Origin: an uncultured Oscillospiraceae bacterium
GTDB taxonomy: Bacteria > Bacillota > Clostridia > Oscillospirales > Acutalibacteraceae
DNA length: 42,765 bases
Assembly: GCA_902490145.1 (NCBI GenBank)
Contig: CABUCT010000001.1
Span: 1 to 42,765, forward strand
Direction: 5' to 3'
The notes under the pieces are model-generated. The model was given only the letters and a program-made list of their open reading frames with translations. It was not told the DNA's origin and did no database searches. Position 1 is the stretch's first letter. Each line of letters starts with the position of its first letter. Both the position numbers and the translations under genes were made by a program. Positions 11,719 to 35,258 of the stretch are shown piece by piece.

Positions 11719-11757
11719 TAAATATTTTTATGTAAAACTGTCATATTATAATCGTAT

Positions 11758-11804
11758 TTTCACAGTAAAACACCAAAGTTTTGTTATACTGTTTTACTGT
11801 GAAA
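11758..11804. repeat. 15-bp perfect inverted repeat (hairpin) downstream of copA
   Basis: TTTCACAGTAAAACA (11758-11772) pairs with TGTTTTACTGTGAAA (11790-11804) across a 17-nt loop. No immediate T-run follows. Confidence 0.5.
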
Positions 11805-11813
11805 TAACTTTTT

Positions 11814-11857
11814 AAAACCGCAAAGCCTTCGGTATTACCGAAGGCTTTGCGGTTTAA
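11814..11857. terminator. Bidirectional rho-independent terminator shared by copA and the phage head module
   Basis: About 20-bp near-perfect palindrome AAACCGCAAAGCCTTCGGTA / TACCGAAGGCTTTGCGGTTT. It is flanked by an A-run on the left and a T-run on the right. Confidence 0.75.
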
Positions 11858-11858
11858 T

Positions 11859-12648: not shown

Positions 12649-13010
12649 TGTATCGCCACAAATTCAAAGTCTCCATTCTTCATAAGACGGCTTATGCGTT
12701 TTAAAGCTTCATCCCGCAGCTGTCGTGATGCCGAAATACGTTCGGAAGCTGAGTCTCTGATAGACAAATCTCCTGCCTTAAAAGAGGTGTTGCCGTCAAA
12801 TGATGAACTTATAAGAACATATTCATAAAATGCACATGCAGCAGCGGCATAAGTCAAAGAACTCATGTTATTTGAAATATCGCAGTCCTCCTTCAGGTCG
12901 GCAGAAATACTATCAGCAGCTGAGCGACAGGTATCTATCCATTTTATAGCATCCTCTTTTTCAAGACCTGTAAGAGACAGAAAAATGTCAAAAACCAGCA
13001 TAAGATCCAT
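12642..13010 (-). CDS. Phage hypothetical protein (candidate head-tail connector by position)
   Basis: 122-aa acidic helical ORF starting 6 nt after the capsid gene stop. Size and position are typical of gp6-like connectors. Confidence 0.55.
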   Translation of the reverse strand: MDLMLVFDIFLSLTGLEKEDAIKWIDTCRSAADSISADLKEDCDISNNMSSLTYAAAACAFYEYVLISSSFDGNTSFKAGDLSIRDSASERISASRQLRDEALKRISRLMKNGDFEFVAIQC

Positions 13011-22072: not shown

Positions 22073-22109
22073 AACAGCGAGTAAAATCTTTGTCTTAGCT
22101 GAAAATAAT

Positions 22110-22147
22110 AAAAAGGTGTGACTCAGGTTTAGAGCCACACCTTTTTA
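22110..22147. terminator. Bidirectional rho-independent terminator ending the fum-mdh-hdr-flx-frd-transporter cluster
   Basis: AAAAGGTGTGACTC / GAGCCACACCTTTT stem with one mismatch, flanked by A-rich and T-rich tracts. It lies 70 nt past the transporter stop. Confidence 0.7.
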
Positions 22148-22215: not shown

Positions 22216-23433
22216 TCAAACTACCATTCCGAATATCTTTGAAGCGACAACAATAAAAACAAGTGCAATCGGATATGTTGCAGCATAAGCTGATGCAACG
22301 TCGTCCGTGCCGGCCACCGATATAAGTGTACCCAGTGCCGGTGTACTTGTCATACCACCGGTGATAGATCCGAGATTGTTGAAAATGCTGAGCTTGAAAA
22401 CATATTTTGCGATTATGAATCCGATAACCATCGGAAGTGTGGTCATTATGATTCCATATACAAAATAGGATGGCTTAAAGTTGTTGACAAAGTTAACTCC
22501 TCCGGGAACTCCTGCTCCGATAAGGAAGAGCATAAGTCCAAGCTCTCGGAAAACGTTGAGTGTGTTTTTGTTTATTCTCATATCAATCGAACCGAAGTGA
22601 CCGAAGTGACCGACAATAAGACCCATAATAAGCGTTCCGCCGGATGATCCGAGCGAGAAATTAATTCCTGGGATTTTGATACTTCCGAGAACTATTCCGA
22701 GTGCTACAGTAGCCATAAATGGGAAAAATCCAAGCGAATCAAGCTGAATTCTTTTGCCCTTTGATTCAGGGATTGTAACACTATTTGCGGCTTCAAACTG
22801 TTCACGCTCTTTTTTTATATCGACCTTAAGAAGTCGGGGAATTATCTGAACAAAAAGAACAACACCAAGCACGCCGAAGATATAAGCAATGCCATACCCC
22901 GCTGTTACAAGACTTTCACCATCGGTACCCGCAAATACTTCTTTTGCCGAAGAAAGTCCAGGGGTGCTTGTGAGTGCACCGGTCAAAAGTCCGATTGCCA
23001 TGGCGGGTTCAACACCTAAAGCAACTGTAATTGACATTACTACAAATCCGATAGTGATTATGATAGCTCCAAGAGCCAAATAAGAAACGCTTTTCTTGTT
23101 AAAGCTGCGGAAAAACTTCGGTCCGGCAATAAGTCCGACCGCTGTGACGAACAACGCAGTTCCTATATTAGAAACTAAACCAAAACTTGATTTCAAGCTG
23201 TCGTTCCAAAATGTTATGGTTGTGTCTCCAATTTGGATAGCGTTAACATAGTGTGCAAATATACCAAATACAAGAGCCATGAGCAGTACTCCGGCAGTTC
23301 CAAGTGAAATACCTTTTACTTTAATGCCGCCCAAAAGATAGCCGACCATAGCAATAATAAAAATAAAAAACAAAGTTGTGAGCAGGCTGTGCATAACAGA
23401 ACCTATATATACCATTTTTCTGTTTCTCCTCAA
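22216..23433 (-). CDS. AAE-family (duplicated Asp-Al_Ex domain, YidE/YbjL-like) transporter without the central TrkA_C domains
   Basis: 405-aa polytopic ORF with a visible internal duplication: LGGIKVKGISLGTAGVLLMALVFG versus LGSIKIPGINFSLGSSGGTLIMGLIVG. The ORF opens with TTG at 23433. The ATG at 23415 with SD GAGGAG is the more likely start. Confidence 0.8.
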   Translation of the reverse strand: MRRNRKMVYIGSVMHSLLTTLFFIFIIAMVGYLLGGIKVKGISLGTAGVLLMALVFGIFAHYVNAIQIGDTTITFWNDSLKSSFGLVSNIGTALFVTAVGLIAGPKFFRSFNKKSVSYLALGAIIITIGFVVMSITVALGVEPAMAIGLLTGALTSTPGLSSAKEVFAGTDGESLVTAGYGIAYIFGVLGVVLFVQIIPRLLKVDIKKEREQFEAANSVTIPESKGKRIQLDSLGFFPFMATVALGIVLGSIKIPGINFSLGSSGGTLIMGLIVGHFGHFGSIDMRINKNTLNVFRELGLMLFLIGAGVPGGVNFVNNFKPSYFVYGIIMTTLPMVIGFIIAKYVFKLSIFNNLGSITGGMTSTPALGTLISVAGTDDVASAYAATYPIALVFIVVASKIFGMVV

Positions 23434-23470: not shown

Positions 23471-25063
23471 TTATTTTCTTGCGTAGTTCGGAAGAAGCTT
23501 CGGTGATTTCACATCTGATTTAATACCGGCATCACTAAGCTCTTTCTCAAAACGTTCAACATGGTCAAGGGTGAGTTTTCCGACTTTTACACTCTTTGCT
23601 TTTTCAGAAGCGTTTTTACCCGCATTGCGGCCGAAAACGATAATATCAAGCAATGAATTTCCCATAAGACGGTTACGTCCGTGGATTCCTCCTACAGCCT
23701 CACCGGCAACAAAGAGGTTTTCAACACCGCTCTGACCATTGTCTGAAATATCGATACCACCGTTTTGGTAATGAAGTGTCGGATAAACAAGAATAGGCTC
23801 TTTGCGGATATCGATGCCATATTTACCGAACATTCTCATCATTGCAGGGATGCGTTTTTCAATAGTACCCTCTCCGTTTTTAAGCTCGATCATAGGAGTA
23901 TCAAGCCATACGGCTTTTCCTTGAGGAGTTTCGACGCCATTTTTACGGTCTGAACATTCGCGGATTATAGAAGCTGCCGAAACATCGCGGGTCTCAAGCG
24001 GATGCATAAATACTTCACCATTTACGTTGACCAATTTTGCACCGAGAGAACGAACCTTTTCGGTAACGAGAGCACCGAAAATCTGTTCAGGGAAAGCAGC
24101 TCCGGTGGGATGATATTGAAGTGTATCAGCATAAAGGAGCTTTGCACCAACGCGATAAGCCAGTACCAAGCCATCAGCCGTTGCACCGTAATGATTAGAA
24201 GTCGGGAATCCCTGATAGTGCAGACGTCCCGCACCACCGGTTGCGATGATAACGGTCTTTGCCTTCGCCACAAGAATCTCTCCGGTTTCCATGTTCATGA
24301 GAACAGCACCGGAAGCCTTGCCGTTTTCATCAAGAATAATTTCGATAGCAGCGGTGAAATCAACCACAGGAATCTCACGGTTAAGAACTTCATCGCGAAG
24401 CGTTCTCATGATTTCGGCACCTGAATAGTCCTTTGCAGCATGCATACGTTTTCTTGAAGTTCCGCCGCCGTGGGTGGTAATCATAGTTCCGTCTGGAGCT
24501 TTATCAAATTCAACACCCAAATTGTTGAGCCATTGAATCGCTTCAGGAGCCTCGTTTACCAATTTGTAAAGAAGTTCCGGCTTTGCAGCAAAATGTCCGC
24601 CGCCGAAAGCATCAAGATAATGCTGTGCAGGGCTGTCGTTTGGCTTGTCTGCAGCCTGGATTCCACCCTCAGCCATCATGGTGTTTGCGTCACCGATACG
24701 AAGCTTTGTAACAATCATTACTTTTGCTCCGTTGTTATCGGCCTCAATAGCAGCAGAAGAACCTGCACCGCCGCCACCGATGATAAGAACATCAACATCA
24801 TAATCAGGATTTTCAAGATCAATGTCTTTGTCAATAACACGACTATGACCCTGAAGCAAAGCGGCAAGCTCTGTCGGAACTTTTTCACCCTTGTTGGGAC
24901 CGACTGTGAGAGTTGCAAATTCCTCCTTTTTATAGTCGGGATGATATGTAGCAAGGAGGGTTTCTTTTTCCTCAGCGGTCATTCTTCTCGGTTCAAACTC
25001 AGCGTTCTTTACGCGTGCATCTTCAACCTTTTTTATGGATTTTTGTAATTCACTTGGATACAT
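23471..25063 (-). CDS. Soluble fumarate reductase/succinate dehydrogenase-family flavoprotein (FrdA/TfrA-like)
   Basis: 530-aa ORF with an FAD fold (DVLIIGGGGAGSSAA), an HPTG active-site block (LQYHPTG) followed by LVTE..R. The covalent-FAD His position reads Asn (DANTMMAEGG versus RSHTVAAEGG). SD AAGGAGG. Confidence 0.8.
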   Translation of the reverse strand: MYPSELQKSIKKVEDARVKNAEFEPRRMTAEEKETLLATYHPDYKKEEFATLTVGPNKGEKVPTELAALLQGHSRVIDKDIDLENPDYDVDVLIIGGGGAGSSAAIEADNNGAKVMIVTKLRIGDANTMMAEGGIQAADKPNDSPAQHYLDAFGGGHFAAKPELLYKLVNEAPEAIQWLNNLGVEFDKAPDGTMITTHGGGTSRKRMHAAKDYSGAEIMRTLRDEVLNREIPVVDFTAAIEIILDENGKASGAVLMNMETGEILVAKAKTVIIATGGAGRLHYQGFPTSNHYGATADGLVLAYRVGAKLLYADTLQYHPTGAAFPEQIFGALVTEKVRSLGAKLVNVNGEVFMHPLETRDVSAASIIRECSDRKNGVETPQGKAVWLDTPMIELKNGEGTIEKRIPAMMRMFGKYGIDIRKEPILVYPTLHYQNGGIDISDNGQSGVENLFVAGEAVGGIHGRNRLMGNSLLDIIVFGRNAGKNASEKAKSVKVGKLTLDHVERFEKELSDAGIKSDVKSPKLLPNYARK

Positions 25064-25075
25064 AAAACAACCTCC

Positions 25076-25753
25076 TTATTTCTCGATCTCTCTGGTATTA
25101 TAGAGTTCTTTCATTTCTTCAATAGGTTTCTGCATAAGGTCCTCGAGAAGCTCCTTGAAATCGCCGTTTTTGATTTCTTTCACTCTGTTTTCAAGATGCT
25201 CTGTTTTGGGAGCAAGATATTTACCATTAAGTCTGCGGGCAAGCATTGCCACCTGCGGATGAGAAATACCTGCGGGGCAGCGTGAAGAACAAACACCGCA
25301 CATTACGCAGTCAAAGGATTCCTCAGCACATTTTTCGTATTCACCTCTCTGAGCATAGGCGATATACTGCATAACATTGAGTCCCTGAGTACAGCTCTTT
25401 GTGCAGGCATTGCAGCCGATACAGCTGTAAATTTCGGGATAAAGCTGCATCATAATCTGCTCGCTTGGGGAAATCTTTTCAATATCATAAACCTGTTTAA
25501 TAAGCGGGAAAAAGGGGAGTGTTGCAACATACATATTGTCCTCAACTTGTGTTGAGCAGGCGAGACAAACCTTGAGTTCGCGATCACCCTTTATGCGATA
25601 TATAGTGGCACAGGCTCCGCAAAAGCCGTTACGGCATCCGCAGCCTCTCACCAGCTGATATCCGGCATATTCCATAGCACCCATGATAGTCAGGCTTGAC
25701 GGGACTTCGTATTTTTTGCCCATCAGAAATACATTTACCATTTTCTGTTCCAT
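25076..25753 (-). CDS. FrdB/SdhB-like iron-sulfur subunit
   Basis: 225-aa ORF. It has an N-terminal 2Fe-2S pattern (CGCRNGFCGAC...C). Two further cluster motifs follow: CIGCNACTKSC and CVMCGVCSSRCP. Confidence 0.8.
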   Translation of the reverse strand: MEQKMVNVFLMGKKYEVPSSLTIMGAMEYAGYQLVRGCGCRNGFCGACATIYRIKGDRELKVCLACSTQVEDNMYVATLPFFPLIKQVYDIEKISPSEQIMMQLYPEIYSCIGCNACTKSCTQGLNVMQYIAYAQRGEYEKCAEESFDCVMCGVCSSRCPAGISHPQVAMLARRLNGKYLAPKTEHLENRVKEIKNGDFKELLEDLMQKPIEEMKELYNTREIEK

Positions 25754-25768: not shown

Positions 25769-26599
25769 TTAATATTCATCTGGCATCTCGTCGATTTGGT
25801 CACAGCGGAAGACCGGACCGTCTTTGCAAACGTATTTAGAGCCGATGTTGCAGCGGCCGCATTTGCCGACACCGCATTTCATTTTGAGTTCCATTGTGGT
25901 GAAAACCTGAGTTTTGTCAAACCCGAGTTCCATAAGACCTGCAAGGGTAAACTTAATCATAATAGGCGGACCGCATATGATAACGGTTTTGTTTGTGTCA
26001 AAGCCAAGTTCCTTGACATAGTTCGGAACAAAACCGACGTGTCCGTCCCAGCCTTCCTGTTCACGGTCAATGGTGAGATGAACATTTATGCCGTCCTCGT
26101 TGCTCCATTCACTTATGATTTCATCATAATCCACAAGGTCATCCTTACTTCTTGAACCATAAACAATGTCAACAGTGCCATAGTTTTCACGGTTATCACG
26201 GACATAATTAATAACCGAACGAAGCGGAGCAAGACCGATGCCGCCGGCAACAAAGAGCAGATCTTTGCCCTTAAATGCAGTATCAACAGGGAAGCCGTTT
26301 CCATAAGGTCCGCGAATGGTGATTTGCTGCCCAACATCCATTTGGTGAAGCCATTCGGTAAGACATCCGCATTTTTTGATGCTGAATTCCATAAACTCAG
26401 TGTTTGTGGGAGATGAAGTAATTGAGAACATAGCCTCTCCGACACCCGGAATAGAGAGCATAGCACATTGACCGGGAATATGCTCAAAACATTTTCCTCC
26501 GTCAAGGGAATTGACGCGGAAGGTTTTTACATCGGGAGTGTCGATGCGAACATCTGTAACAACACCGATGTGCGGAATAAGAGTTTCGTTAACAGACAT
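25769..26599 (-). CDS. FAD/NAD(P)H-binding oxidoreductase with a C-terminal 2Fe-2S (FlxA / HydG / AsrB / PyrK-like)
   Basis: 276-aa ORF with the nucleotide-binding block LLFVAGGIGLAPLRS. The C-terminal motif is CGVGKCGRCNIG...CKDGPVF. Confidence 0.8.
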   Translation of the reverse strand: MSVNETLIPHIGVVTDVRIDTPDVKTFRVNSLDGGKCFEHIPGQCAMLSIPGVGEAMFSITSSPTNTEFMEFSIKKCGCLTEWLHQMDVGQQITIRGPYGNGFPVDTAFKGKDLLFVAGGIGLAPLRSVINYVRDNRENYGTVDIVYGSRSKDDLVDYDEIISEWSNEDGINVHLTIDREQEGWDGHVGFVPNYVKELGFDTNKTVIICGPPIMIKFTLAGLMELGFDKTQVFTTMELKMKCGVGKCGRCNIGSKYVCKDGPVFRCDQIDEMPDEY

Positions 26600-27624
26600 T
26601 ATTTTTTACCCCCTAACTTTTTGATAACCTTTGCAATATTCATAGAAATAGGACACTTTGCAACACATCTTCCGCATCCGACGCAGGAATAAAGTCCTTC
26701 ATTGTTTGCCGGATAGTACACAAGCTTATGCATAAAGCGTTGACGGAAGCGTTCAAGCTGGCTTGTGCGGGGGTTTCCGTGAGCCATTTTGGTAAAGTCG
26801 GAGTACATGCAGGAATCCCAGCAGCGATATCTTTGAACACCGTGACCGGTGTCATAGTCGCGGATATCATAGCACTGGCAAGTCGGACAAACAAATGTGC
26901 AGGTTCCGCATCCGATACATGATTCCGAAAGAGTTGCCCATTCGGGAGAATTGAATTTTTCAAGCATAACTTCTTCGCTGCCAAAGCCTTCAAGCGACAG
27001 ATCGGAGAGAGGAAGCTTTTTCATAATTTCGGAAGTTGCTTTTTTCTGTGTTTCTACAGCAGAATTATCGCAAGCTTCAAACAATCCGGAAATTTTATTT
27101 TCCAAAGCCTTACCCTTTTCGGTTATTGCTTCGAAATAAAGAGCATCATCGGTAATATAGGTTACGGCATCGCCTTTAGGATCGGTTGCATCAATGCCGA
27201 ACACGTTGCAAAAACAGGTTTCTTCAGGAGCTGAACAAGCGAGAGTGACAACAGTGCCTTTTTTGCGGCGGTTTTCATAATATGAATCAACCGGATCACT
27301 GAGGAAAACACGGTCAAGCACGTCAAAACTCTTTGCATCGCAGGCACGAACACCAAAAACTACAAAATCTTTGGTTTCATCGCGGTTGTCAATAACCTCA
27401 ATCTTTTTACCCTCGGTTTTGAAAGCCATAAGATTTTCGCTTTGCGGGAAGAAAAGATCCTTCGGAGAGCGATTTGTATGAAGAATATCAAGGCGAACCT
27501 TTGAATCAGCATCCCATTTGAAGAAATCAACATTTCCGCTCTTTTCAATCGGAAGATAAAGCTCTTCGTCGGCTGCGATTGTTTCAAATAATGAATTTAA
27601 TTTTTCTTTTGAAATTTTAAGCAT
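26599..27624 (-). CDS. Polyferredoxin-type 4Fe-4S protein (FlxB / AsrA / sulfhydrogenase-beta-like)
   Basis: 341-aa ORF with GVRACD, CIGCGTCTFVCPTCQC and CVGCGRCVAKCP. It overlaps each neighbour by 1 nt. Confidence 0.75.
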   Translation of the reverse strand: MLKISKEKLNSLFETIAADEELYLPIEKSGNVDFFKWDADSKVRLDILHTNRSPKDLFFPQSENLMAFKTEGKKIEVIDNRDETKDFVVFGVRACDAKSFDVLDRVFLSDPVDSYYENRRKKGTVVTLACSAPEETCFCNVFGIDATDPKGDAVTYITDDALYFEAITEKGKALENKISGLFEACDNSAVETQKKATSEIMKKLPLSDLSLEGFGSEEVMLEKFNSPEWATLSESCIGCGTCTFVCPTCQCYDIRDYDTGHGVQRYRCWDSCMYSDFTKMAHGNPRTSQLERFRQRFMHKLVYYPANNEGLYSCVGCGRCVAKCPISMNIAKVIKKLGGKK

Positions 27625-28613
27625 TAGTTGTCGCCTCCTTTATCCGAAACCACAGAGGGCTCAACATCATTTTGAGTGAAGCTGGTGAGTGGGGTGCGGA
27701 CTTCGTCATCAGAACCCGCCTGATATTCACCGTAAAAGCTGTCAATATCTTTGATAAATTTGCGATTAAGCAAATGAAGCGGAATGTTTTGAGGGCAAAC
27801 TCTTGAACACTCTCCGCAGTCGGTGCAGCGACCGGCAACATGGAATGCACGGATAATGTGGAAACAATTTTCTTCGAAGCTGTCAACCGGAGCTTTAGAA
27901 GCAATTCCTGATTCAGCATTGTCAAACACACAGTTTGTGCAGGTACAGGCAGGGCATACATTGCGGCAGGCATTGCAGCGAATGCATTTTGAAAGCTCAC
28001 CTCTCCAAAATTCAAAACGCTCGTCCGGAGTCATGGCTTCAAGTTTCTCAACTATTTCAAAGCGATCGGATTTCCATGAATTATCGGGAGTTTCATCTTT
28101 AACTATAAGTTCATCCTGAACAACGTGGGTGCGGCCTTTGCATACACAGCAGCGATCAAGAAGTGCATCTCTGCGGGAAACCTGTTTGTCACCGTAAAGT
28201 GTATGAACAACGAGCGTGTCTCCATCCTCGTCAATAGATGTAATACCTGTAATCCCCATCTTGCGGAGCTTTTCAACGTCAAGCTTTCCACCGCAGTGAA
28301 TGCCGATAGCATAAATTTTTTCGCGGTCAACGCGATGTTCTTTAATCAGCTGATTTAAGCTGTATGTATCGCATGGTTTAAGGAAAACAGCGGTTTTACC
28401 ATCTTTTTTGGACTCTTTTATGAGATATTTACTGAGATTTGCACCGCAAAATCCATTATACACAAAATCATCGAGCTGATCAGCAGAGGTAAACACAGCA
28501 GGTGTGGGATCATAGAAGAACTCTCCGTTTTTCCAACCGACAACACGAGCTACTTCTCCGGAGGACAAAAGCTCTTGAGCCTTTGATTTCATTCGGTCAA
28601 AGATTTCTTGCAT
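27624..28613 (-). CDS. Polyferredoxin-type 4Fe-4S protein (FlxC-like)
   Basis: 329-aa ORF with LKPCD, CIRCNACRNVCPACTC and CTDCGECSRVCP. A good SD (GGAGG, 7-nt spacing) precedes the ATG at 28613. Confidence 0.7.
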   Translation of the reverse strand: MQEIFDRMKSKAQELLSSGEVARVVGWKNGEFFYDPTPAVFTSADQLDDFVYNGFCGANLSKYLIKESKKDGKTAVFLKPCDTYSLNQLIKEHRVDREKIYAIGIHCGGKLDVEKLRKMGITGITSIDEDGDTLVVHTLYGDKQVSRRDALLDRCCVCKGRTHVVQDELIVKDETPDNSWKSDRFEIVEKLEAMTPDERFEFWRGELSKCIRCNACRNVCPACTCTNCVFDNAESGIASKAPVDSFEENCFHIIRAFHVAGRCTDCGECSRVCPQNIPLHLLNRKFIKDIDSFYGEYQAGSDDEVRTPLTSFTQNDVEPSVVSDKGGDN

Positions 28614-29044
28614 CTCAAATCCTCCAATCTCTTATTCGGACCAAGCTCGGTCACAGTTTTTACAAAGTCGTTCATAACTGTAGAAAATCTTGCACCTTCA
28701 GCAGCAGAAACCCATTCAACACGGGTACGTCCCCTCTCGATTCCGAGATAGTCAAGCATACCGAAAAGCAAAGTCATTCTGCGTCTTGCATAATAGTTTC
28801 CGGTTGTATAGTGGCAATCGCCGGGATGGCATCCGCACATGATAACACCGTCTGCACCACGCTGAAAAGCCCTTAAAATGAATATCGGGTTTACACGGCA
28901 GGAGCAAGGCACACGAATTATTTTTACATTTGCGGGATAGTTAAGACGGTTGGTTCCGGCCAGATCCGCCCCTGCATATGAACACCAGTTGCAGCAGAAA
29001 GCAACAATTTTCGGGGTGAATTCTTTGCTGTCATTTATTTGCAT
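28589..29044 (-). CDS. MvhD/FlxD-type protein (methyl-viologen-reducing hydrogenase delta subunit family)
   Basis: 151-aa ORF with the characteristic block VAFCCNWCSYAGADLAG...IRVPCSCRV...GADGVIMCGCHPGDCHY. Confidence 0.9.
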   Translation of the reverse strand: MQINDSKEFTPKIVAFCCNWCSYAGADLAGTNRLNYPANVKIIRVPCSCRVNPIFILRAFQRGADGVIMCGCHPGDCHYTTGNYYARRRMTLLFGMLDYLGIERGRTRVEWVSAAEGARFSTVMNDFVKTVTELGPNKRLEDLRCKKSLTE

Positions 29045-31023
29045 ATTGCATCTACCTCCGCCATAATCTGTTTATTTGAGAATCCCTTAAGGTCCATAGC
29101 TCCTGACGGGCAGGTAACAGTACAAGCACCGCAGCCCTGACATACAGCTTCGTTGACCGAAGCCACTCTTCTTGTTTCGGTTTTGCCACCGCCGAGGCGG
29201 AATTCCTTGTCTATATAAGAAATAGCACCATAGGGACAAACGTTGGCACAAGCCGAGCAGCCGTTACAGGTCATCTCGTTGGAATGAGCAACGCATGGAT
29301 TGCAGGTAAGCTTATCTTTTGAAAGAAGCCCGATAACCTTTGCGGCAGCAGCCGAAGCCTGAGCAACCGTTTCAGGAATATCTTTAGGTCCTTGGCAAAC
29401 GCCCGAAAGGAATACGCCCGCAGTGGGACTTTCGACCGGACGAAGCTTTGGATGAGCCTCTGTAAAGAAATCGTTAGTATCCATGCTGGCAGTAAGCTTT
29501 GTCGCAATCGAGCGGGCGGACTTGTCTGGCTCGATAGCAGCGGCAAGCACAACCATATCGGCTTCAATGTGAAGTTGTTCATTCATTATAAGATCAGAGG
29601 CCTGAACGGTTAGCTTTCCGTCATGTGGAGCAACCTTTCCCACCATGCCTTTTATGTAATGAACACCGTATTCTTCAACTGCACGGCGATAGAACTCGTC
29701 AAAGTTCTTTCCAGGGGTACGAACATCTATATAGAATACATAAACATCTGTGTCCGGATATTTCTCGCGAGTCAGCATTGCGTGTTTTGCAGTATACATG
29801 CAGCAAATCTTTGAGCAATACTCTTTTCCGCAGCCTGATGTATCACGGCTTCCGACACACTGAACGAAAACAATGGTGTGCGGATGGGTTTTGTCGGACG
29901 GACGGAGAAGCGTTCCTCCGGTTGGTCCGGCAGCATTCATAAGACGCTCATATTCAAGAGAAGTTACAACATCGGGACTCTGCGAATAAGCAAATTCGTC
30001 ATAATTATCAAGTTTTATGGGATTAAATCCGGTTGCGGCAACGATAGCACCGTATTTTTGTTCGATAATTTCGTCCTTCTGTTTGTAGTCAATAGCATTT
30101 GCGGTACATACCTTAGAGCAAACCCCGCATTTCCCGGTCTTGAGCATAGTGCAGTAGTCCGGATCAATTCGGGCGACCTTCGGAACTGCCTGAGCAAACG
30201 GGATGTAGATAGCTCTGCGGTTATCAAGTCCGAGATTGAATTCGTTAGGGACTTTTTTCTGAGGACATTTTTCGGTGCAAAGTCCGCATCCGGTACATAC
30301 ATCCTCTTTTACATATCTGGCTTTCTTGCGAATTTTAACACTGAAGTTTCCGACGAATCCGCCGACTTCTTCAATTTCGCTGAAAGAGTAAATTTTTATT
30401 TTTTCATTTTGTGCGGCCTCAACCATTTTCGGAGTCAGAATACAGGCGGCACAGTCAAGAGTCGGGAAGGTTTTGTCGATCTGAGCCATCTTTCCACCGA
30501 TTGTTGGAGACTTCTCAACAATATCGACTTCATAACCTGCGTCGGCAATATCAAGAGCAGTCTGAATACCTGCGATACCACCGCCGATAACCAAAGCTCG
30601 TTTGGTTACAGGGCTTTCTCCTGCGGTGAGGGGAGCATTGAGATGAACCTTTGCAATAGCTGCACGACCAAGAATGATGGCCTTTTCGGTGGCAATCTCC
30701 ATATCCTTATGGATCCATGAACACTGTTCACGGATATTTGCAACCTCGACCATATATGGGTTAAGTCCGACAGATGCGGCAGCTTTTCTGAAAGTTGCTT
30801 CGTGCATACGGGGTGAGCAGGAGCAAATAACTACACCGGTAAGAGAATGTTCCTTAATGGCATTTTTAATAAGATCCTGACCTGCCTGAGAGCACATATA
30901 TTGATAGTCGGCGGAAAAAACAACACCGGGCTCTTTCCCGAGTTCTTCTGCAACTTTTTTAACGTCTACGGTTGCGGCAATGTTGCTTCCGCACCAGCAG
31001 ACAAATACACCTATTCTCTGCAT
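29035..31023 (-). CDS. hdrA: Heterodisulfide reductase subunit A-like flavoprotein
   Basis: 662-aa ORF. It has the N-terminal Cys domain (VFVCWCGSNI...CSCSPRMH) and the FAD fold (VIGGGIAGIQTALDIA...GGKMAQIDKTFPTLDCAAC). An inserted ferredoxin domain (CTGCGLCTEKCP, CGVCSKVC) and a C-terminal one (CNGCSACANVCP, CQGCGACTVTCP) are also present. Confidence 0.9.
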   Translation of the reverse strand: MQRIGVFVCWCGSNIAATVDVKKVAEELGKEPGVVFSADYQYMCSQAGQDLIKNAIKEHSLTGVVICSCSPRMHEATFRKAAASVGLNPYMVEVANIREQCSWIHKDMEIATEKAIILGRAAIAKVHLNAPLTAGESPVTKRALVIGGGIAGIQTALDIADAGYEVDIVEKSPTIGGKMAQIDKTFPTLDCAACILTPKMVEAAQNEKIKIYSFSEIEEVGGFVGNFSVKIRKKARYVKEDVCTGCGLCTEKCPQKKVPNEFNLGLDNRRAIYIPFAQAVPKVARIDPDYCTMLKTGKCGVCSKVCTANAIDYKQKDEIIEQKYGAIVAATGFNPIKLDNYDEFAYSQSPDVVTSLEYERLMNAAGPTGGTLLRPSDKTHPHTIVFVQCVGSRDTSGCGKEYCSKICCMYTAKHAMLTREKYPDTDVYVFYIDVRTPGKNFDEFYRRAVEEYGVHYIKGMVGKVAPHDGKLTVQASDLIMNEQLHIEADMVVLAAAIEPDKSARSIATKLTASMDTNDFFTEAHPKLRPVESPTAGVFLSGVCQGPKDIPETVAQASAAAAKVIGLLSKDKLTCNPCVAHSNEMTCNGCSACANVCPYGAISYIDKEFRLGGGKTETRRVASVNEAVCQGCGACTVTCPSGAMDLKGFSNKQIMAEVDAICK

Positions 31024-31037: not shown

Positions 31038-31430
31038 TTACTTACTGTGTTTTCTCATAACGCTGACGATTGCCTGTTGGGGCAGATCATCATTGAGAAG
31101 TGACGGAATGTCATCTTGTTTCATGTGGTTTTGACCCTGCTGGCGAATGACCGAAAGACGGACAGCTTCAACAAACTTTGCAGGTTCAACACCTCTTGGA
31201 CAGCGTTCAACGCAGGCAAGACATGAAAGACACATAAAAAGACTCTTTGAATTCATAAGAGGCTCGATTTTGCCCTGTTCAACCATAGCGACAAACTGAT
31301 GGGGATGATATTCCATCTCGCCGTAAGCAGGACATGTGCCTGAACATTTTCCGCATTTCATACACTTTCTTGGGTTAACACCGGCAATGCGGATTATTTC
31401 CTCAGAGAGGTTAGCGTTTGTATTGCTCAT
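31038..31430 (-). CDS. hdrC: Heterodisulfide reductase subunit C-like 2x[4Fe-4S] protein
   Basis: 130-aa ORF with CMKCGKCSGTCP and CLSCLACVERCP. It overlaps hdrB by 4 nt. Confidence 0.85.
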   Translation of the reverse strand: MSNTNANLSEEIIRIAGVNPRKCMKCGKCSGTCPAYGEMEYHPHQFVAMVEQGKIEPLMNSKSLFMCLSCLACVERCPRGVEPAKFVEAVRLSVIRQQGQNHMKQDDIPSLLNDDLPQQAIVSVMRKHSK

Positions 31431-32218
31431 TTGTCCTCCTCCTTTACGCCGAGAGCTTCGGCGAGAATTTCGGTGAAGTAATAAACCGGCAGTCCGTTTT
31501 GTGCGTTGTGATTAAGGTTGTACATACAAAGCGGACAAGCGGTGATAAGCATTTCTGCTCCTGCACTTTTGGCCGAGTCATTTATATTCGTTACCTTTGC
31601 TTTTGGAAGATCTTCATCCTCCATGGTGATATATCCGCCGCAGCATTCATTGCGATACGGATAAACGACCGGTTCAGCTCCGAGAGCACGAATGAAATCT
31701 TCGATAATAGTCGGATTTTCGGGATTATCAAAGCCGAGCTGTTTTCCTGGACGAAGAAGCAGGCAGCCGTAATAAGCACCGATTTTCTTTCCGGTAAGCG
31801 GATTTTTAACGGCTTCTTTAAGCTTGTCAAATCCGATCTTATCGCGAAGAAGCTCAAGGAAGTGAATGACCTCTGCCTCTCCGTTATACGGATTTTCAAG
31901 AGCAAGGTAATTGTTTGCTTTGAAGTTCATGTTGGCGTCGTTTTTCATGTCATAGTTTGTACGTTTTATAACATGATGACAGGCCGAACACATAGTTACA
32001 AGAGTCTGCCCTTTGTCACGTGCCGCTGCAAGAGCTCTGACAGATGAGAGTTTTGGAGCGATTTCGTCGCTTCCCATAGGATAAACTCCACCGCAGCACT
32101 GCCATTCGGGCAATTCCTCAAGAGTGATACCAAGAGCCTCGGCGGATTTTCTGGCGTATATATCGAGATCCTTGGCTTTGGTTTTGAGTGTACAGCCGGG
32201 ATAATAACTGTATATCAT
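31427..32218 (-). CDS. hdrB: Heterodisulfide reductase subunit B-like protein (two CCG domains)
   Basis: 263-aa ORF with two copies of the C...CCGG...CxxC pattern: YYPGC...QCCGG...CSAC and YYGC...ECCGG...CPLC. Confidence 0.9.
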   Translation of the reverse strand: MIYSYYPGCTLKTKAKDLDIYARKSAEALGITLEELPEWQCCGGVYPMGSDEIAPKLSSVRALAAARDKGQTLVTMCSACHHVIKRTNYDMKNDANMNFKANNYLALENPYNGEAEVIHFLELLRDKIGFDKLKEAVKNPLTGKKIGAYYGCLLLRPGKQLGFDNPENPTIIEDFIRALGAEPVVYPYRNECCGGYITMEDEDLPKAKVTNINDSAKSAGAEMLITACPLCMYNLNHNAQNGLPVYYFTEILAEALGVKEEDK

Positions 32219-32244: not shown

Positions 32245-33192
32245 TTATATTTCAAGTCCTTTTATAACCGATTTAAGGTTGTCGGCACTCTTTCTAAGAA
32301 GAGCCATTTCCCCTTGAGTAAGAGGAGTGGGGACTTTGCATTTGATTCCCTGATTATTTACAAGCGACAAGGTGCTCAGGCATACGTCGTCAATACCGTA
32401 TTCGCCGTTCATCATGCTGCTGACCGTGAGAGCGGTATCAACGCTTGAAAAAATGCAGCGGCAGATCATTGCAGTTACGATTGAGACTGCATAGTAAGTA
32501 GCTCCCTTGTTCTCAATGATAGTAGCACCGGAATTTTTAACATATTCCCAAATTTTCTGGCGGTCAATGGGAGGAACAGCAGTTTCCTTGCTGAAGAAAC
32601 AGTCATGATACTGGTTGATGCTGATGCTGGAAATAGTCGAGATAGACCACGGAATGAATGATGTGTCACCGTGCTCACCAAAAACATAAGCATGAACGTT
32701 TTTCTGGCTTACATTATAGTAGTCAGCAAGACTTGTACGCAGACGTGCAGTATCAAGAAGAGTTCCCGAACCGAACACACGGTTCTGCGGAATACCTGAG
32801 ACTTTAGTAAAGACATATGTGAGAATGTCAACAGGGTTTGCAACAATGACATAAATAGCATCAGGAGCATATTTTGTTATCTCCGGTGCAATCTTTTTGA
32901 TTATGTTGGTGTTTACCTGAGACAATTCAAGACGTGACTGACCTGCTTTACGTGCAACTCCTGAGGTGATGATAACGATATCAGCATCTTTGGCATCGGA
33001 ATATGTACCGGAATAAATATTTGTCGGGGAACAATATGCTGTGCCCTGACGGATGTCCATAGCCTCACCGAAAGCCTTTTTTTCATTAATATCGATGAGG
33101 ACGATTTCTGCGGCGGTTCCGTTTACGGTCAAGGTGTATGCAATGGTGGCACCAACATTACCGGTACCGATAATAGCAACTTTGCTGCTCAT
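32245..33192 (-). CDS. L-lactate/malate dehydrogenase family enzyme; Arg at the substrate-specificity position suggests an LDH-like malate dehydrogenase
   Basis: 315-aa ORF with the Rossmann motif IIGTGNVG, the catalytic block GEHGDTS and LDTARLR. The loop GVARKAGQSR aligns with LDH GANQKPGETR, placing Arg where LDH has Gln102. Confidence 0.85.
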   Translation of the reverse strand: MSSKVAIIGTGNVGATIAYTLTVNGTAAEIVLIDINEKKAFGEAMDIRQGTAYCSPTNIYSGTYSDAKDADIVIITSGVARKAGQSRLELSQVNTNIIKKIAPEITKYAPDAIYVIVANPVDILTYVFTKVSGIPQNRVFGSGTLLDTARLRTSLADYYNVSQKNVHAYVFGEHGDTSFIPWSISTISSISINQYHDCFFSKETAVPPIDRQKIWEYVKNSGATIIENKGATYYAVSIVTAMICRCIFSSVDTALTVSSMMNGEYGIDDVCLSTLSLVNNQGIKCKVPTPLTQGEMALLRKSADNLKSVIKGLEI

Positions 33193-33377: not shown

Positions 33378-33986
33378 TTATTTCATATAGTGAACTTTTG
33401 GCTTAAGCTCTGCGGCTTGCTTATCGCGGGCAGAATCAAAATCCTTGCGAACCTGAGTGAACATATTGTTTCCCTGGGTATCAATAGAAACGATCAGCGG
33501 ACCGAATTCTTTAACCCGACATACCCAAAGAGCCTCAGGAACACCGAAATCGAGCCATTCAACATCTTCAACTTCTTCGACCTCCTCGGCGGCCATAACG
33601 GCACATCCGCCGGGGAGAACGCAGTGCAAAGCACCGAATTCTTTACAGGCAGCAGCAGTGTTATCTCCCATGCCGCCTTTACCAATGATAATTTTAACAC
33701 CGGTCTGCTCGATGAAATCAGCCTCAAATGCTTCCATTCTCATGCTGGTGGTCGGGCCTACAGATACCATTGAGTATTTGTCTCCGTCTTTTTTAACAAT
33801 CGGACCCGCGTGGAAAATAGCATTTCCTGCGAATTCAAAATTAGGTTTAATACCCTCATGAACACGTCTTGCGTGGCCGGAGTCACGGCAAGTAGCCATC
33901 ATTCCGGTGAGGTATATCATATCGCCAACACGAAGATCTGCAATATCTTCGGTTTTAATAGGCGTGGTTATGATTCTTTTTTCCAT
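33378..33986 (-). CDS. Class I (Fe-S) hydro-lyase beta subunit: fumarate hydratase or L(+)-tartrate dehydratase beta
   Basis: 202-aa ORF with the Fumerase_C-type block [22 protein letters not shown]. It is paired with the alpha subunit upstream. Confidence 0.85.
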
Positions 33987-34022
33987 ATATAACAGTCCTT
34001 TCGGTCAAATCCAGAATTTATG

Positions 34023-34922
34023 TCAGATTTTTGCACCTTTGTGGGTTATCATCTCGCAGCTGCCGTCTGCCGAAACAGAAAGAGTTCCGCGGCGATGAGC
34101 CCAGCAGCCGGTCTGAACCGACACAGCCAAAGTGGCAGGGTGACGGCAAATGGTTTCAACATTAAGTCCGAGAAGACTTTCGCTTCCGCCGAGACCCTGA
34201 GGTCCGATACCGATTTTATTGATTGAATCAGAGAGAAGCTTTTCAAATTCGGCAACCTTAGGATTCGGGTTATGACTGCCGACTTTTCTGAGAAGAGCTT
34301 TTTTGGAAAGCTTAGTAGCAGTAGAAATACAGCCACTGATACCGACGCCGACAGCGAGAGGAGGACATGCGTTAACACCGCGTCCGGTAACAACGTCAAG
34401 AACAAAGTCAACAACGCCTTCATATCCCTGAGCCGGCATAAGAACTGCCGAACGACCCGGAAGACTGCATCCGCCGCCTGCAAAATAAACGTCCATTTCG
34501 ATTTTATCGGAATCAGGAACAATGTTCCATTCTATGTAAGGAACACCGGTTCCGACGTTTTTGCCGGTATTATACTCGTCGAAGGTTTCAACGGCATTAA
34601 GACGAAGAGGAGTCTGCTGAGTAGCCTGAGCCACAGCCTCATTAATGACTTCGGTGAGAACATTAAGATAAGGACTGAAAGCTCCTGCACGTACATAAAG
34701 ATGAACGATGCCGGTATCCTGGCAGGTTGGTCTCATAATCTCAACTGCTCTTCTTTGATTTCCGATCATGATGTCATAAAGAGTAATAGCACTCTCTTTG
34801 GTTTCTGCTTCTCTCATTTCGAGCAAGCGTGCCATAACATCATCAGGAAGGCGGATAGACGCCATTCCGACAAAGTTGGCAACATGATCAATAAGCTCTT
34901 TTTTCTGCTTCTCGGTGATCAT
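34023..34922 (-). CDS. Class I (Fe-S) hydro-lyase alpha subunit: fumarate hydratase or L(+)-tartrate dehydratase alpha
   Basis: 299-aa ORF with Fumerase-type blocks (CQDTG, GIGPQGLGG, HPATLAVSVQTGCWAHRR). Confidence 0.85.
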   Translation of the reverse strand: MITEKQKKELIDHVANFVGMASIRLPDDVMARLLEMREAETKESAITLYDIMIGNQRRAVEIMRPTCQDTGIVHLYVRAGAFSPYLNVLTEVINEAVAQATQQTPLRLNAVETFDEYNTGKNVGTGVPYIEWNIVPDSDKIEMDVYFAGGGCSLPGRSAVLMPAQGYEGVVDFVLDVVTGRGVNACPPLAVGVGISGCISTATKLSKKALLRKVGSHNPNPKVAEFEKLLSDSINKIGIGPQGLGGSESLLGLNVETICRHPATLAVSVQTGCWAHRRGTLSVSADGSCEMITHKGAKI

Positions 34923-35258
34923 AAAATCATTCCTTTGTACAAAAATGTTATCATATTAATGGTCAAATACTTAAGGTTTTCGGTGTATCAAATAAGGCTG
35001 TACGATAAATCGGAGATTTTAAAAAATTTACAAATAAATTAAAAAAACCGATGATTTCCCTGTAAGCATCAATACAACACCCTATAACCCCACTTTGACT
35101 AATAAATTACGATAGAAGTCTATCACAATTGAAATGAAATTGCAATAGGAAACGTGTTAATTTTTTAACAATTATTTTTTTTGTTATTTATTATTGAAAT
35201 AAAGGGAATTTTGTGATATATTTTCCACATAAATAATATAAAAAAGGGAGATAAACAA

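What the first reader, a model, noticed from the sequence alone, without database searches (positions are those of the whole stretch)
23471..25753. Anchor-less FrdAB-like pair predicted to bind FAD non-covalently; with the separate HdrB it recreates a split TfrAB
**What the sequence shows**
- The flavoprotein has Asn where membrane Frd/Sdh enzymes have the FAD-linking His (DANTMMAEGG versus RSHTVAAEGG).
- It keeps the HPTG and TE..R catalytic blocks and has an ~90-aa N-terminal extension.
- The Fe-S subunit has the 2Fe-2S pattern plus two complete Cys motifs (CxxCxxCxxxC and CxxCxxCxxxCP), rather than the 3Fe-4S-type motif.
- It stops at 225 aa, with no CCG domain and no anchor partner.

**Context**
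- Non-covalent FAD is typical of soluble fumarate reductases and L-aspartate oxidase.
- TfrB of methanogens carries the CCG domains in cis.

**Interpretation**
- The CCG protein HdrB, encoded 6 kb upstream in the same operon, may play the TfrB C-terminal role in trans.
- It would then serve as the docking point between the Hdr module and FrdAB.
Basis: partly seen in the sequence, partly recalled or inferred. Interest (0 to 1): 0.6.

Follow-up and report, generated by a model that had tools for sequence, protein, structure and literature searches.

The report
Soluble Hdr/Flx-linked fumarate reductase pair
These two genes encode the catalytic pair of a membrane-free fumarate reductase that sits in one operon with an NADH-oxidising, probably electron-splitting Hdr/Flx module; the design was proposed in 2019-2020 but I found no biochemical test of it, so this is another member of a known candidate enzyme type.

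Summary
**Observation: confirmed.**
- The 530-aa flavoprotein has Asn127 where E. coli FrdA has the FAD-linking His44. It keeps all dicarboxylate-site residues, has a conserved 89-aa N-terminal extension and lacks the C-terminal domain.
- The 225-aa Fe-S protein has a 2Fe-2S motif and two complete 4Fe-4S motifs. It has no CCG domain and no anchor partner.

**Context.** The pair ends a 13-gene operon: hydratase αβ, mdh, hdrBCA, flxDCBA, frdBA, AAE transporter. The hdrBCA-flxDCBA-frdBA core is conserved in all 80 related loci. In 151 sampled genomes of the order, HdrA and FrdA each occur in 45, and 44 have both.

**Best reading (0.6).** A cytoplasmic complex oxidises NADH, reduces fumarate and also reduces ferredoxin, which Rnf re-oxidises. 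This was proposed for Pseudoclostridium thermosuccinogenes (PMC7282089). I found no biochemical test.

**"Split TfrAB": partly supported.**
- The domain sum FrdB + HdrB = TfrB holds.
- FrdA lies in its own clade, outside TfrA/SdhA and NadB.
- HdrB belongs to a complete HdrABC.
- Same-family FrdBA pairs exist with no CCG protein: one genome of the same order, and marine Gammaproteobacteria with a NuoF-like partner.

**Scan history.** This operon type was noted at least 148 times before on other DNA. New here are the variable electron-input partners and this lineage's class I (TtdAB-like) hydratase in place of FumC.

The parts
23471..25063 (-). FrdA-like flavoprotein, 530 aa: conserved 89-aa N-terminal extension, FAD and capping domains, Asn127 at the covalent-FAD His site, no C-terminal helical domain
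   Evidence: PF00890 covers residues 91-471. TfrA model 346 bits against cut-off 718. E. coli FrdA E = 2e-53. Residue map. AF2 pLDDT 78, pTM 0.84, and best Foldseek match E. coli FrdA.
25076..25753 (-). FrdB-like Fe-S subunit, 225 aa: 2Fe-2S motif plus two complete 4Fe-4S motifs, helical C-terminal tail, no CCG domain
   Evidence: Pfam Fer2_4 and Fer4 families. BLASTP to E. coli FrdB E = 4e-6 with all motifs aligned. All ligand Cys invariant in 75 sequences.
25769..26599 (-). FlxA-like FAD/NAD(P)H-binding subunit with a 2Fe-2S domain (AsrB/HydG-like); probable NADH entry site
   Evidence: PF00175, PF00970 and PF10418. NF006220 235 bits.
26599..27624 (-). FlxB-like Fe-S subunit (AsrA/HydB-like)
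   Evidence: PF17179 Fer4_22. ShyB, HydB and AsrA models.
27624..28613 (-). FlxC-like Fe-S subunit
   Evidence: Fer4_8 and Fer4_17.
28589..29044 (-). FlxD / MvhD-like subunit
   Evidence: PF02662 FlpD, E = 8e-55.
29035..31023 (-). HdrA, full length: candidate electron-bifurcating flavoprotein
   Evidence: HdrA2 model 797 bits. 5odc_A HdrA 691 bits over residues 3-659.
31038..31430 (-). HdrC, dicluster ferredoxin-like subunit
   Evidence: TIGR03290 62 bits; Fer4_8 and Fer4_17.
31427..32218 (-). HdrB with two complete CCG motifs (C9...C41C42...C77xxC80; C151...C192C193...C228xxC231)
   Evidence: PF02754 twice. Methanogen HdrB structures E = 3e-36. SdhE 139 bits, HdrB 134 bits, TfrB C-half 34 bits. 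Motifs read from the translation.
32245..33192 (-). LDH-type malate/lactate dehydrogenase (probable oxaloacetate to malate step)
   Evidence: NF000824 352 bits; NF004863 271 bits. An orthologue lies upstream in 47 loci.
33378..33986 (-). Class I Fe-S hydro-lyase beta subunit (TtdB/FumB-like)
   Evidence: NF006082 315 bits, above cut-off 264.
34023..34922 (-). Class I Fe-S hydro-lyase alpha subunit (TtdA/FumA-like); occupies the functional slot that FumC fills in 53 related loci
   Evidence: NF006084 435 bits, above cut-off 365. FumC in relatives. Same arrangement in L089.
22216..23433 (-). AAE-family (AspT/YidE/YbjL) transporter, probable succinate or C4-dicarboxylate port
   Evidence: PF06826 210 bits. 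Lies downstream of frdA in 48 loci.
22109..22147 (-). Intrinsic terminator-like hairpin (16-pair stem plus T-run) that closes the operon

Best explanation
**What it is.** FrdA and FrdB are the fumarate-reducing end of a soluble multi-subunit complex encoded by hdrBCA-flxDCBA-frdBA.

**Proposed electron path (inferred).**
1. NADH is oxidised at FlxA.
2. Electrons pass through the Fe-S subunits FlxB, FlxC and FlxD (MvhD-like) to the FAD of HdrA.
3. There the pair is split. One electron goes uphill to ferredoxin.
4. The other goes downhill through HdrC, probably HdrB, the three clusters of FrdB and the non-covalent FAD of FrdA, where fumarate becomes succinate.

**Net reaction.** 2 NADH + Fd(ox) + fumarate -> 2 NAD+ + Fd(red) + succinate.

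**Energy conservation.** Rnf re-oxidises the reduced ferredoxin and builds an ion gradient. This gives a bacterium in which I found no MenA hit (66%-complete assembly) an energy yield from fumarate reduction. The upstream hydratase and Mdh supply fumarate from oxaloacetate, and the AAE transporter moves the dicarboxylate.

**Shown here.** Gene content, order and co-occurrence, the catalytic residues and cluster motifs, and the missing anchor, missing His and missing C-terminal domain.

**Inferred.** Complex formation, the electron path, the donor (NADH or NADPH) and bifurcation itself.
For: - **Fumarate is the substrate.** All dicarboxylate-site residues are kept. The NadB-specific Glu121 is Gly here, and a separate nadB lies on contig 17. 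Class II fumarase sits directly upstream of hdrB in 53 related loci, with mdh in 47.
- **No quinone route.** The operon has no anchor genes. The 3Fe-4S site is replaced by a 4Fe-4S motif. No MenA was found in this 66%-complete assembly.
- **Coupling to Hdr/Flx.** The genes overlap or lie 12-26 nt apart from mdh to frdA. hdrBCA-flxDCBA-frdBA is intact in every one of 80 loci as far as the DNA reaches. In 151 genomes of the order, HdrA and FrdA each occur in 45 and 44 have both, each as a single match; where the listed places share a contig they lie about 6 kb apart. One exception is a contig end.
- **The Hdr module looks competent.** HdrA aligns full length to the bifurcating M. wolfeii HdrA. 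HdrB keeps both CCG motifs.
- **Ferredoxin link.** RnfC is present in this genome. rnfCDGEAB lies 3.5 kb downstream of frdA in the nearest relative.
- **Thermodynamics (established knowledge).** NADH (-320 mV) to fumarate (+30 mV) releases far more energy than NADH to ferredoxin (about -450 mV) costs.
Against: - I found no biochemical data for any member of this operon type in the library searched.
- Bifurcation is inferred only from homology to HdrA.
- FrdBA pairs of the same family work without Hdr in other genomes. Wiring to Hdr is therefore an add-on, and could run through a diffusible carrier rather than a fixed complex.
- The FrdB model was poor (pLDDT 63), and no multimer model could be made.
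- The genome is only 66% complete, so the absence of MenA, DsrC or FumC is weak evidence.
- The tool for finding sequencing runs was closed, so there is no expression evidence.
Confidence: 0.6

Rival explanations
1. Non-bifurcating soluble NADH:fumarate oxidoreductase. Flx and Hdr act only as an electron wire from NADH to FrdAB, and no ferredoxin is reduced.
For: Related FrdBA pairs are joined to a simple NuoF-like NADH module in marine Gammaproteobacteria, so plain NADH:fumarate reduction seems to exist in this family. No assay shows bifurcation.
Against: A seven-subunit module with a full-length bifurcation-type HdrA is costly for a reaction that a single NuoF-like subunit appears to serve elsewhere. 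An Rnf operon lies next to the locus in the nearest relative. About 350 mV would be wasted.
Confidence: 0.15
2. Thiol-mediated, Tfr-like two-step scheme (closest to the first reader's picture). Flx-HdrABC reduces an unknown disulfide. HdrB/FrdAB then acts as a thiol:fumarate reductase, with a thiol/disulfide couple or an HdrB-bound substrate as intermediate.
For: FrdB plus HdrB equals the domain architecture of TfrB. HdrB keeps both CCG motifs that bind the heterodisulfide-reducing clusters in methanogens. hdrB is adjacent to frdB in L090.
Against: No DsrC/TusE was found in this incomplete assembly. There is only one HdrB, so reduction and re-oxidation at the same site amounts to direct electron transfer. 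The same-family pair in G065 has no CCG protein in a 98%-complete genome. FrdA is outside the TfrA clade.
Confidence: 0.1
3. FrdAB is a free-standing ferredoxin- or flavodoxin-dependent fumarate reductase that is only co-expressed with Flx-Hdr, and Flx-Hdr has another high-potential acceptor.
For: Stand-alone FrdBA pairs exist. The outermost cluster is a 4Fe-4S, as in ferredoxin-type proteins.
Against: HdrA and FrdA were found together in 44 genomes. HdrA without FrdA was seen once, in a genome where the HdrA match is cut by a contig end. No alternative acceptor gene lies in the operon. Driving fumarate reduction with ferredoxin would waste about 480 mV.
Confidence: 0.1
4. The flavoprotein does not act on fumarate. 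It might be an L-aspartate oxidase, as some database records name its orthologues, or another enoate or dicarboxylate reductase.
For: One orthologue is named 'L-aspartate oxidase' in NCBI. The nadB model scores 278 bits. NadB shares the same Arg/His set.
Against: The score is below the nadB cut-off of 453 bits. The NadB marker Glu121 is Gly here. The protein lies in a clade separate from NadB with 100% support. The genome has its own nadB. Fumarase and Mdh are encoded in the same operon.
Confidence: 0.03

Closest known systems
'Succinate operon' of Pseudoclostridium (Hungateiclostridium) thermosuccinogenes: fumarate hydratase, Flx-Hdr (7 genes), fumarate reductase (2 genes), putative succinate transporter (Koendjbiharie et al. 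2020, PMC7282089; Koendjbiharie and van Kranenburg 2019 preprint, doi 10.20944/preprints201912.0288.v1)
   Same: The gene inventory and logic are the same: hydratase, seven Flx-Hdr genes, a two-subunit anchor-less fumarate reductase and a transporter. The proposed NADH-dependent, ferredoxin-reducing fumarate reduction is also the same.
   Different: I could not fetch its sequences, so orthology of the two FrdAB pairs is inferred from the description only. The window adds an mdh gene. Like that operon it has a fumarate hydratase, but here it is a class I, TtdAB-like enzyme, whereas most gut relatives carry FumC.
Thiol:fumarate reductase TfrAB of methanogens (NCBIfam NF004900 / NF004898)
   Same: It is soluble and anchor-less. 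TfrA is the best-scoring model for the flavoprotein (346 bits). TfrB has the same 2Fe-2S plus dicluster architecture followed by two CCG domains, which is what FrdB and HdrB add up to.
   Different: - The score is far below the cut-off of 718 bits, and the C-terminal 120 residues of TfrA are missing.
- The protein lies in a separate clade.
- TfrA-like representatives keep the FAD-linking His, whereas this protein has Asn.
- The CCG protein here is a genuine HdrB within a full HdrABC.
- No CoM/CoB thiols are expected in a Clostridium (my own knowledge).
FlxABCD-HdrABC of Desulfovibrio vulgaris (Ramos et al. 2015, cited in PMC7282089)
   Same: It has the same seven subunit types: FAD/NAD(P)H FlxA, Fe-S FlxB and FlxC, MvhD-like FlxD, and HdrABC.
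   Different: The gene order is reversed (hdrBCA-flxDCBA). No DsrC was found. The module is fused in one operon to FrdBA and never occurs without it in the order sampled, apart from one contig-end case.
Quinol:fumarate reductase / succinate dehydrogenase (complex II), e.g. E. coli FrdABCD (PDB 1kf6)
   Same: The FAD and capping-domain fold matches (Foldseek E = 6e-28). The catalytic residue set is identical. The Fe-S subunit has the same three-motif layout.
   Different: There is no His for covalent FAD, no C-terminal helical domain and no membrane anchor. A 4Fe-4S motif replaces the 3Fe-4S motif. An 89-aa N-terminal extension is added.
Type E succinate:quinone oxidoreductase / methylmenaquinol:fumarate reductase with the CCG subunit SdhE (NCBIfam NF042965)
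   Same: In that enzyme a separate HdrB-like CCG protein accompanies an SdhAB pair. The window's HdrB scores slightly higher to the SdhE model (139 bits) than to the HdrB model (134 bits).
   Different: Both scores are far below the cut-offs (500 and 345 bits). The window's protein sits with HdrA and HdrC. No quinone biosynthesis gene was found in this incomplete genome.

Membership tests
Complex II flavoprotein (SdhA/FrdA, quinone-linked) | His that binds FAD covalently (E. coli FrdA His44) | tested here: not met
   Asn127 aligns with His44. 79 of 80 orthologues have Asn.
Complex II flavoprotein (SdhA/FrdA, quinone-linked) | Catalytic and substrate residues H232, T244, E245, R248, R287, H355, R390 | tested here: met
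   All are conserved: H318, T334, E335, R338, R359, H431, R465.
Complex II flavoprotein (SdhA/FrdA, quinone-linked) | C-terminal helical domain, and a score above the family model cut-off | tested here: not met
   65 residues follow R390, against 211 in E. coli FrdA. TIGR01812 scores 287 bits against a cut-off of 567.
Complex II (whole enzyme) | Membrane anchor subunit(s) and a 3Fe-4S cluster next to the quinone site | tested here: not met
   No anchor gene lies in the operon. The motif is CxxCxxCxxxCP where E. coli FrdB has CxxxxxCxxxCP.
Thiol:fumarate reductase TfrAB | TfrA equivalog score of at least 718 bits over the full length | tested here: not met
   346 bits, covering model positions 6-426 of 546. 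The protein lies in a separate clade.
Thiol:fumarate reductase TfrAB | TfrB with CCG domains fused to the Fe-S subunit | tested here: not met
   FrdB ends at 225 aa without a CCG domain. It matches TfrB only at model positions 19-94.
Thiol:fumarate reductase TfrAB | Thiols (CoM-SH + CoB-SH) as electron donor | not testable with these tools
   This needs an enzyme assay.
L-aspartate oxidase NadB | Glu121 (E. coli numbering) that binds the substrate amino group, and a nadB model score above the cut-off | tested here: not met
   Gly occupies that column, while the genome's own NadB-like paralogue has Glu. TIGR00551 scores 278 bits against a cut-off of 453. The NadB clade is separate with 100% support.
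Soluble flavocytochrome c / Osm1-type fumarate reductases | Single polypeptide with non-covalent FAD, fed by haem or NADH domains, with no Fe-S partner | tested here: not met
   TIGR01813 scores 206 bits against a cut-off of 285. A dedicated Fe-S subunit is translationally coupled, with a 12-nt gap, and is even fused in P0122.
Flx-Hdr-linked 'novel fumarate reductase' (P. thermosuccinogenes type) | One operon with hydratase, seven Flx-Hdr genes, two anchor-less Frd genes and a transporter | tested here: met
   compared with the description in PMC7282089.
Flx-Hdr-linked 'novel fumarate reductase' (P. thermosuccinogenes type) | Sequence orthology to the P. thermosuccinogenes Frd genes described in PMC7282089 | not tested
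   That genome could not be fetched by name, and the one genome-contig scan returned only the 80 closest loci.
Flavin-based electron-bifurcating HdrABC enzymes | NADH- and fumarate-dependent ferredoxin reduction | not testable with these tools
   Only homology is available: HdrA scores 691 bits to 5odc_A.

The most novel reading that the evidence does not exclude
The window's FrdAB would belong to a so far unnamed family of soluble, modular fumarate reductases. Its marks are an N-terminal extension in place of the C-terminal domain, no covalent FAD, and an Fe-S subunit whose distal cluster motif is 4Fe-4S. Different lineages plug this module into different electron inputs: Flx-Hdr, Hdr-MvhD next to a 2-oxoacid:ferredoxin oxidoreductase, a NuoF-like NADH module, or none. 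In the Hdr-coupled form it would be a new class of flavin-based electron-bifurcating enzyme. Fumarate would be the high-potential acceptor, and HdrB's non-cubane clusters would act as a plain electron relay to FrdB without any thiol substrate.
Probability: 0.4. Interest if true: 0.7.

Novelty: new member of a known kind. Interest (0 to 1): 0.4.

Why it matters
**If the complex works as proposed**
- It would explain how the many gut and rumen Clostridia that carry this operon make succinate and gain energy from it. A MAG labelled Ruminococcus flavefaciens, Clostridium leptum and Phocea massiliensis encode orthologues. No MenA hit was found in this incomplete genome.
- It would add fumarate to the short list of high-potential acceptors of flavin-based electron bifurcation.
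- It would show an HdrB working without a heterodisulfide.

**How common it is**
- The operon was found in 43 of 149 good-quality genomes sampled in this order.
- More than 8000 protein clusters match FrdA.
- It therefore bears on succinate, propionate and hydrogen budgets in guts.

**How new it is**
- The idea is not new (2019-2020), and this scan has met the operon many times.
- What this window adds is modest: evidence that the FrdAB module is portable between electron-input modules, and that a CCG partner is not intrinsic to it.

Tried and rejected
- **AlphaFold2 of FrdB.** With 75 sequences of 77-90% identity the model was poor (pLDDT 63). Foldseek matched only the 76-residue 2Fe-2S domain, to NuoG/HydA-type domains. 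I treat this as inconclusive, not as evidence against an SdhB-like fold.
- **HdrB-FrdB interface.** No multimer prediction is offered, and fused sequences may not be submitted.
- **The 2019 preprint.** It is not held in the library. Four further literature searches found no biochemical follow-up.
- **Rex operator scan.** Matches over the whole window are no more frequent than chance (21 found, 28 expected). Only the position of one site, at 35212-35229 in the operon's upstream region, is suggestive.
- **Own-genome searches.** FumC, MenA, DsrC and ATP-type PckA were all negative, but the assembly is 66% complete, so these count for little.
- **Rejected: aspartate oxidase.** The Glu121 marker is missing, the tree separates the clades, and the genome has a separate nadB.
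- **Rejected: the N-terminal extension as an Hdr docking domain.** It is present in Hdr-free family members.
- **Rejected: Rnf adjacency as a general feature.** It is seen only in the nearest relative L089 and in none of the 80 loci.


Full report
**1. What is at the coordinates**

Two minus-strand ORFs fill the finding. One is a 225-aa Fe-S protein (25076-25753) and the other a 530-aa flavoprotein (23471-25063). They are separated by 12 nt.

They are genes 10 and 11 of a co-directional, tightly packed, partly overlapping series:
- class I hydro-lyase alpha and beta (34922-33378)
- an LDH-type malate dehydrogenase
- hdrB, hdrC, hdrA
- an mvhD-like gene (flxD)
- two Fe-S genes (flxC, flxB)
- an FAD/NAD(P)H-binding gene (flxA)
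- frdB, frdA
- an AAE-family transporter

A 16-bp-stem terminator at 22147-22109 closes the series.

**2. Check of the observation**

*Flavoprotein*
- Pfam FAD_binding_2 starts at residue 91.
- HMMER alignments to E. coli FrdA and Mycobacterium Sdh1 place 'GDANTMMAEGG' on 'RSHTVAAEGG' and 'GKAHTVMAEGG'.
- I fetched E. coli FrdA, SdhA and NadB and aligned them with 66 full-length representatives. His44 corresponds to Asn127.
- H232, T244, E245, R248, R287, H355 and R390 are all kept, as H318, T334, E335, R338, R359, H431 and R465.
- Only 65 residues follow the last Arg, against 211 in FrdA, so the helical/C-terminal domain is missing.
- The extension is real. M1 and Y2 and 19 further positions within residues 1-90 are invariant in 60 orthologues.
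- AlphaFold2 predicts the extension with pLDDT 73-96 (whole model 78, pTM 0.84).
- The best structural matches are E. coli FrdA, M. smegmatis Sdh1 and Wolinella FrdA.

*Fe-S protein*
- It aligns to E. coli FrdB over residues 15-170, with the 2Fe-2S motif and both dicluster motifs in register.
- Cys152 stands where FrdB has the Val of its 3Fe-4S motif.
- All ligand Cys are invariant in 75 sequences.
- It has no CCG domain and no anchor gene beside it.

**3. Which family**

No NCBIfam equivalog cut-off is reached:

| Model | Score (bits) | Cut-off (bits) |
|---|---|---|
| TfrA | 346 | 718 |
| SdhA/FrdA | 287 | 567 |
| NadB | 278 | 453 |
| flavocytochrome c | 206 | 285 |

- A search of 1.84 billion representatives found 2373 relatives at E <= 1e-30.
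- In an IQ-TREE of 57 rows, the window protein and all proteins with the N-terminal extension form a 23-row group. Also in it is a set of 400-aa proteins with Asn or Lys at the His site.
- This group is split with 100% SH-aLRT from a NadB clade and from the SdhA/FrdA/TfrA-like sequences. I left out 14 fragmentary or degenerate rows.
- Every member of the group lacks His and lacks the C-terminal domain. TfrA-like representatives such as P0202 (690 bits to the TfrA model) have His.
- The NadB marker Glu121 is Gly in the window protein but Glu in the genome's own NadB-like gene on contig 17.
- The refutation condition 'clusters with aspartate oxidase' is therefore not met. The pair is also not a TfrA or a complex II flavoprotein in the strict sense.

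**4. Context elsewhere**

*Synteny*
- Eighty loci from gut and rumen Clostridia MAGs, including one labelled Ruminococcus flavefaciens, carry FrdA at 78-85% identity.
- Wherever the DNA reaches, the order hdrB-hdrC-hdrA-flxD-flxC-flxB-flxA-frdB-frdA is intact. The transporter follows in 48 loci and mdh lies upstream in 47.
- Median identities to the window are: FrdB 84%, HdrA 83%, FlxD 83%, FrdA 81%, FlxA 80%, HdrC 68%, HdrB 64%, FlxC 62%, FlxB 60%, Mdh 59%, transporter 49%.
- In 53 loci the gene directly upstream of hdrB is a class II fumarase, above the TIGR00979 cut-off. The locus labelled R. flavefaciens has a rex gene in front of it.

*The window's own lineage*
- The window and its nearest relative (L089, FrdA 91%) have a two-subunit class I hydro-lyase upstream of mdh instead. 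It scores above the L-tartrate dehydratase cut-offs.
- No other class I or class II fumarase was found in this 66%-complete genome.
- In L089 the transporter is followed by a MatE gene and then rnfCDGEAB.
- The window's own genome has rnfC on another contig.

*Co-occurrence*
- In a sample of 151 genomes of the same order, FrdA (E <= 1e-100) occurs in 45 and HdrA (E <= 1e-60) in 45.
- 44 genomes have both, each as a single match. Where the listed places share a contig they lie about 6 kb apart.
- The two exceptions are G033 and G065. In G033 HdrA is cut by a contig end.

**5. The FrdAB module is portable**

- G065 is 98% complete. It has frdB-frdA (FrdA 67% identical) beside an oxaloacetate decarboxylase beta gene, with no HdrA and no CCG-domain hit in the genome.
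- More distant members of the same clade show other partners:
  - 2-oxoacid:ferredoxin oxidoreductase, then hdrA-mvhD-hdrC-hdrB-frdB-frdA, without Flx (L090, 57% identity)
  - frdB-frdA followed by a NuoF-like gene in marine Gammaproteobacteria (L091)
  - the pair alone (L094, and Prochlorococcus sp. MIT 1201 in L095)
  - a FrdB-FrdA fusion protein (P0122)
  - the flavoprotein alone
- All FrdB-like partners that I aligned keep both complete 4Fe-4S motifs. This covers L055, L090, L091, L094 and the N-terminal part of the L092 fusion; the L095 partner was not aligned.
- The N-terminal extension is present in the Hdr-free members, and in the fusion it follows the FrdB tail directly. It most likely belongs to the FrdA-FrdB unit and not to Hdr docking (inference).

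**6. Mechanism**

The best-supported reading is the one already in print for Pseudoclostridium thermosuccinogenes.
- PMC7282089 describes a 'succinate operon' with fumarate hydratase, a seven-gene Flx-Hdr complex, a two-gene fumarate reductase and a putative succinate transporter.
- The paper assumes that fumarate reduction is linked to ferredoxin reduction. [quoted passage not shown]
- Here HdrA aligns full length with the bifurcating HdrA of M. wolfeii (691 bits). HdrB keeps both CCG motifs and matches methanogen HdrB structures. FlxA has FAD, NAD and 2Fe-2S domains.
- The potentials are established knowledge: NADH -320 mV, fumarate/succinate about +30 mV, ferredoxin about -450 mV. They allow 2 NADH + Fd(ox) + fumarate -> 2 NAD+ + Fd(red) + succinate with roughly -35 kJ/mol to spare.
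- The Asn at the His44 site fits a one-way fumarate reductase. By established knowledge, E. coli FrdA His44 variants bind FAD non-covalently, still reduce fumarate and lose succinate oxidation.
- The path HdrC -> HdrB -> FrdB is inferred, not shown.

**7. Verdict on the 'split TfrAB' idea: partly supported**

- The domain arithmetic is right and the coupling to Hdr is very strong.
- However, the flavoprotein is not of the TfrA clade.
- HdrB scores 134 bits to the HdrB model, 139 bits to the type E SdhE model and only 34 bits to the TfrB C-half.
- HdrB comes with HdrA and HdrC.
- The FrdAB family functions elsewhere with no CCG protein at all.
- The better description is a portable soluble FrdAB module plugged into a complete Flx-Hdr module. 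HdrB is the likely, but untested, contact.

**8. Novelty**

- The literature searches found the 2020 paper and its cited preprint, and no purification or assay.
- The scan's own notes list at least 148 earlier findings of this operon type in at least 138 genomes, with the same conclusion.
- I reached the paper and my reading before opening those notes.
- This window is therefore a new member of a known, still unproven kind.
- The small additions here are the portability of the FrdAB module, the existence of CCG-free relatives, the class I hydratase variant and the Rnf adjacency in the nearest relative.

**9. Limits**

- The genome is 66% complete.
- The FrdB model is of low confidence.
- The 80 loci were found partly with the pattern DANTMMAE, so they overstate the conservation of Asn.

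Noticed in passing
window 33378-34922 (minus strand); L089:144-1691: In this lineage the hydratase of the operon is a two-subunit class I Fe-S hydro-lyase that scores above NCBIfam's L-tartrate dehydratase (TtdA/TtdB) cut-offs. In 53 related loci a class II FumC sits next to hdrB instead. No other fumarase was found in this 66%-complete genome. Either this enzyme serves as the fumarase or the operon is fed from L-tartrate.
   Followed up: partly
L089:15126-20196: In the nearest relative (FrdA 91% identical) a complete rnfCDGEAB operon lies 3.5 kb downstream of frdA, after the AAE transporter and a MatE gene. None of the other 80 loci shows this.
   Followed up: partly
window 35212-35229: An imperfect palindrome, TGTGATATATTTTCCACA, lies in the region upstream of the operon and overlaps a promoter-like site. 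It resembles a Rex operator. The locus labelled R. flavefaciens (L055:219-860) has a rex gene in front of fumC. Over the whole window such matches are not above chance.
   Followed up: no
L037 (FrdA orthologue, residue about 127): One of 80 orthologues reads GDAHTMMAEGG, with His restored at the covalent-FAD position, in an otherwise typical operon.
   Followed up: no
L092:5250-7433 (P0122, 727 aa): This is a natural FrdB-FrdA fusion. The first 224 residues are 36% identical to the window's FrdB and are followed directly by the N-terminal extension and the flavoprotein. No hdr gene lies on the 7.7-kb contig.
   Followed up: partly
L098 (G065:C15), frdA 9136-10743, frdB 10756-11430, OAD beta 11633-12760: A 98%-complete genome of the same order has a stand-alone frdBA pair (FrdA 67% identical) placed divergently next to a Na+-translocating oxaloacetate decarboxylase beta subunit. 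The genome has no HdrA and no CCG-domain hit.
   Followed up: partly
L090:811-9771: In this variant operon a four-subunit 2-oxoacid:ferredoxin oxidoreductase is followed by hdrA-mvhD-hdrC-hdrB-frdB-frdA, with no Flx genes. It hints at a ferredoxin-fed or reductive-TCA-linked form.
   Followed up: no
L091:9366-12891: Marine Gammaproteobacteria MAGs carry frdB-frdA (47% identical, with the N-terminal extension and Asn) followed by a NuoF-like gene (Complex1_51K, SLBB, NADH_4Fe-4S). This is a candidate three-subunit soluble NADH:fumarate reductase. A Prochlorococcus genome (L095) has the pair in the order A-B.
   Followed up: no
L036, L052: Two loci with about 80% identical operons are labelled Treponema sp. 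and Bacteroidaceae MAGs. This is either horizontal transfer or mis-binning. The patchy spread (29 of 94 genera) at 67-85% identity also hints at transfer.
   Followed up: no
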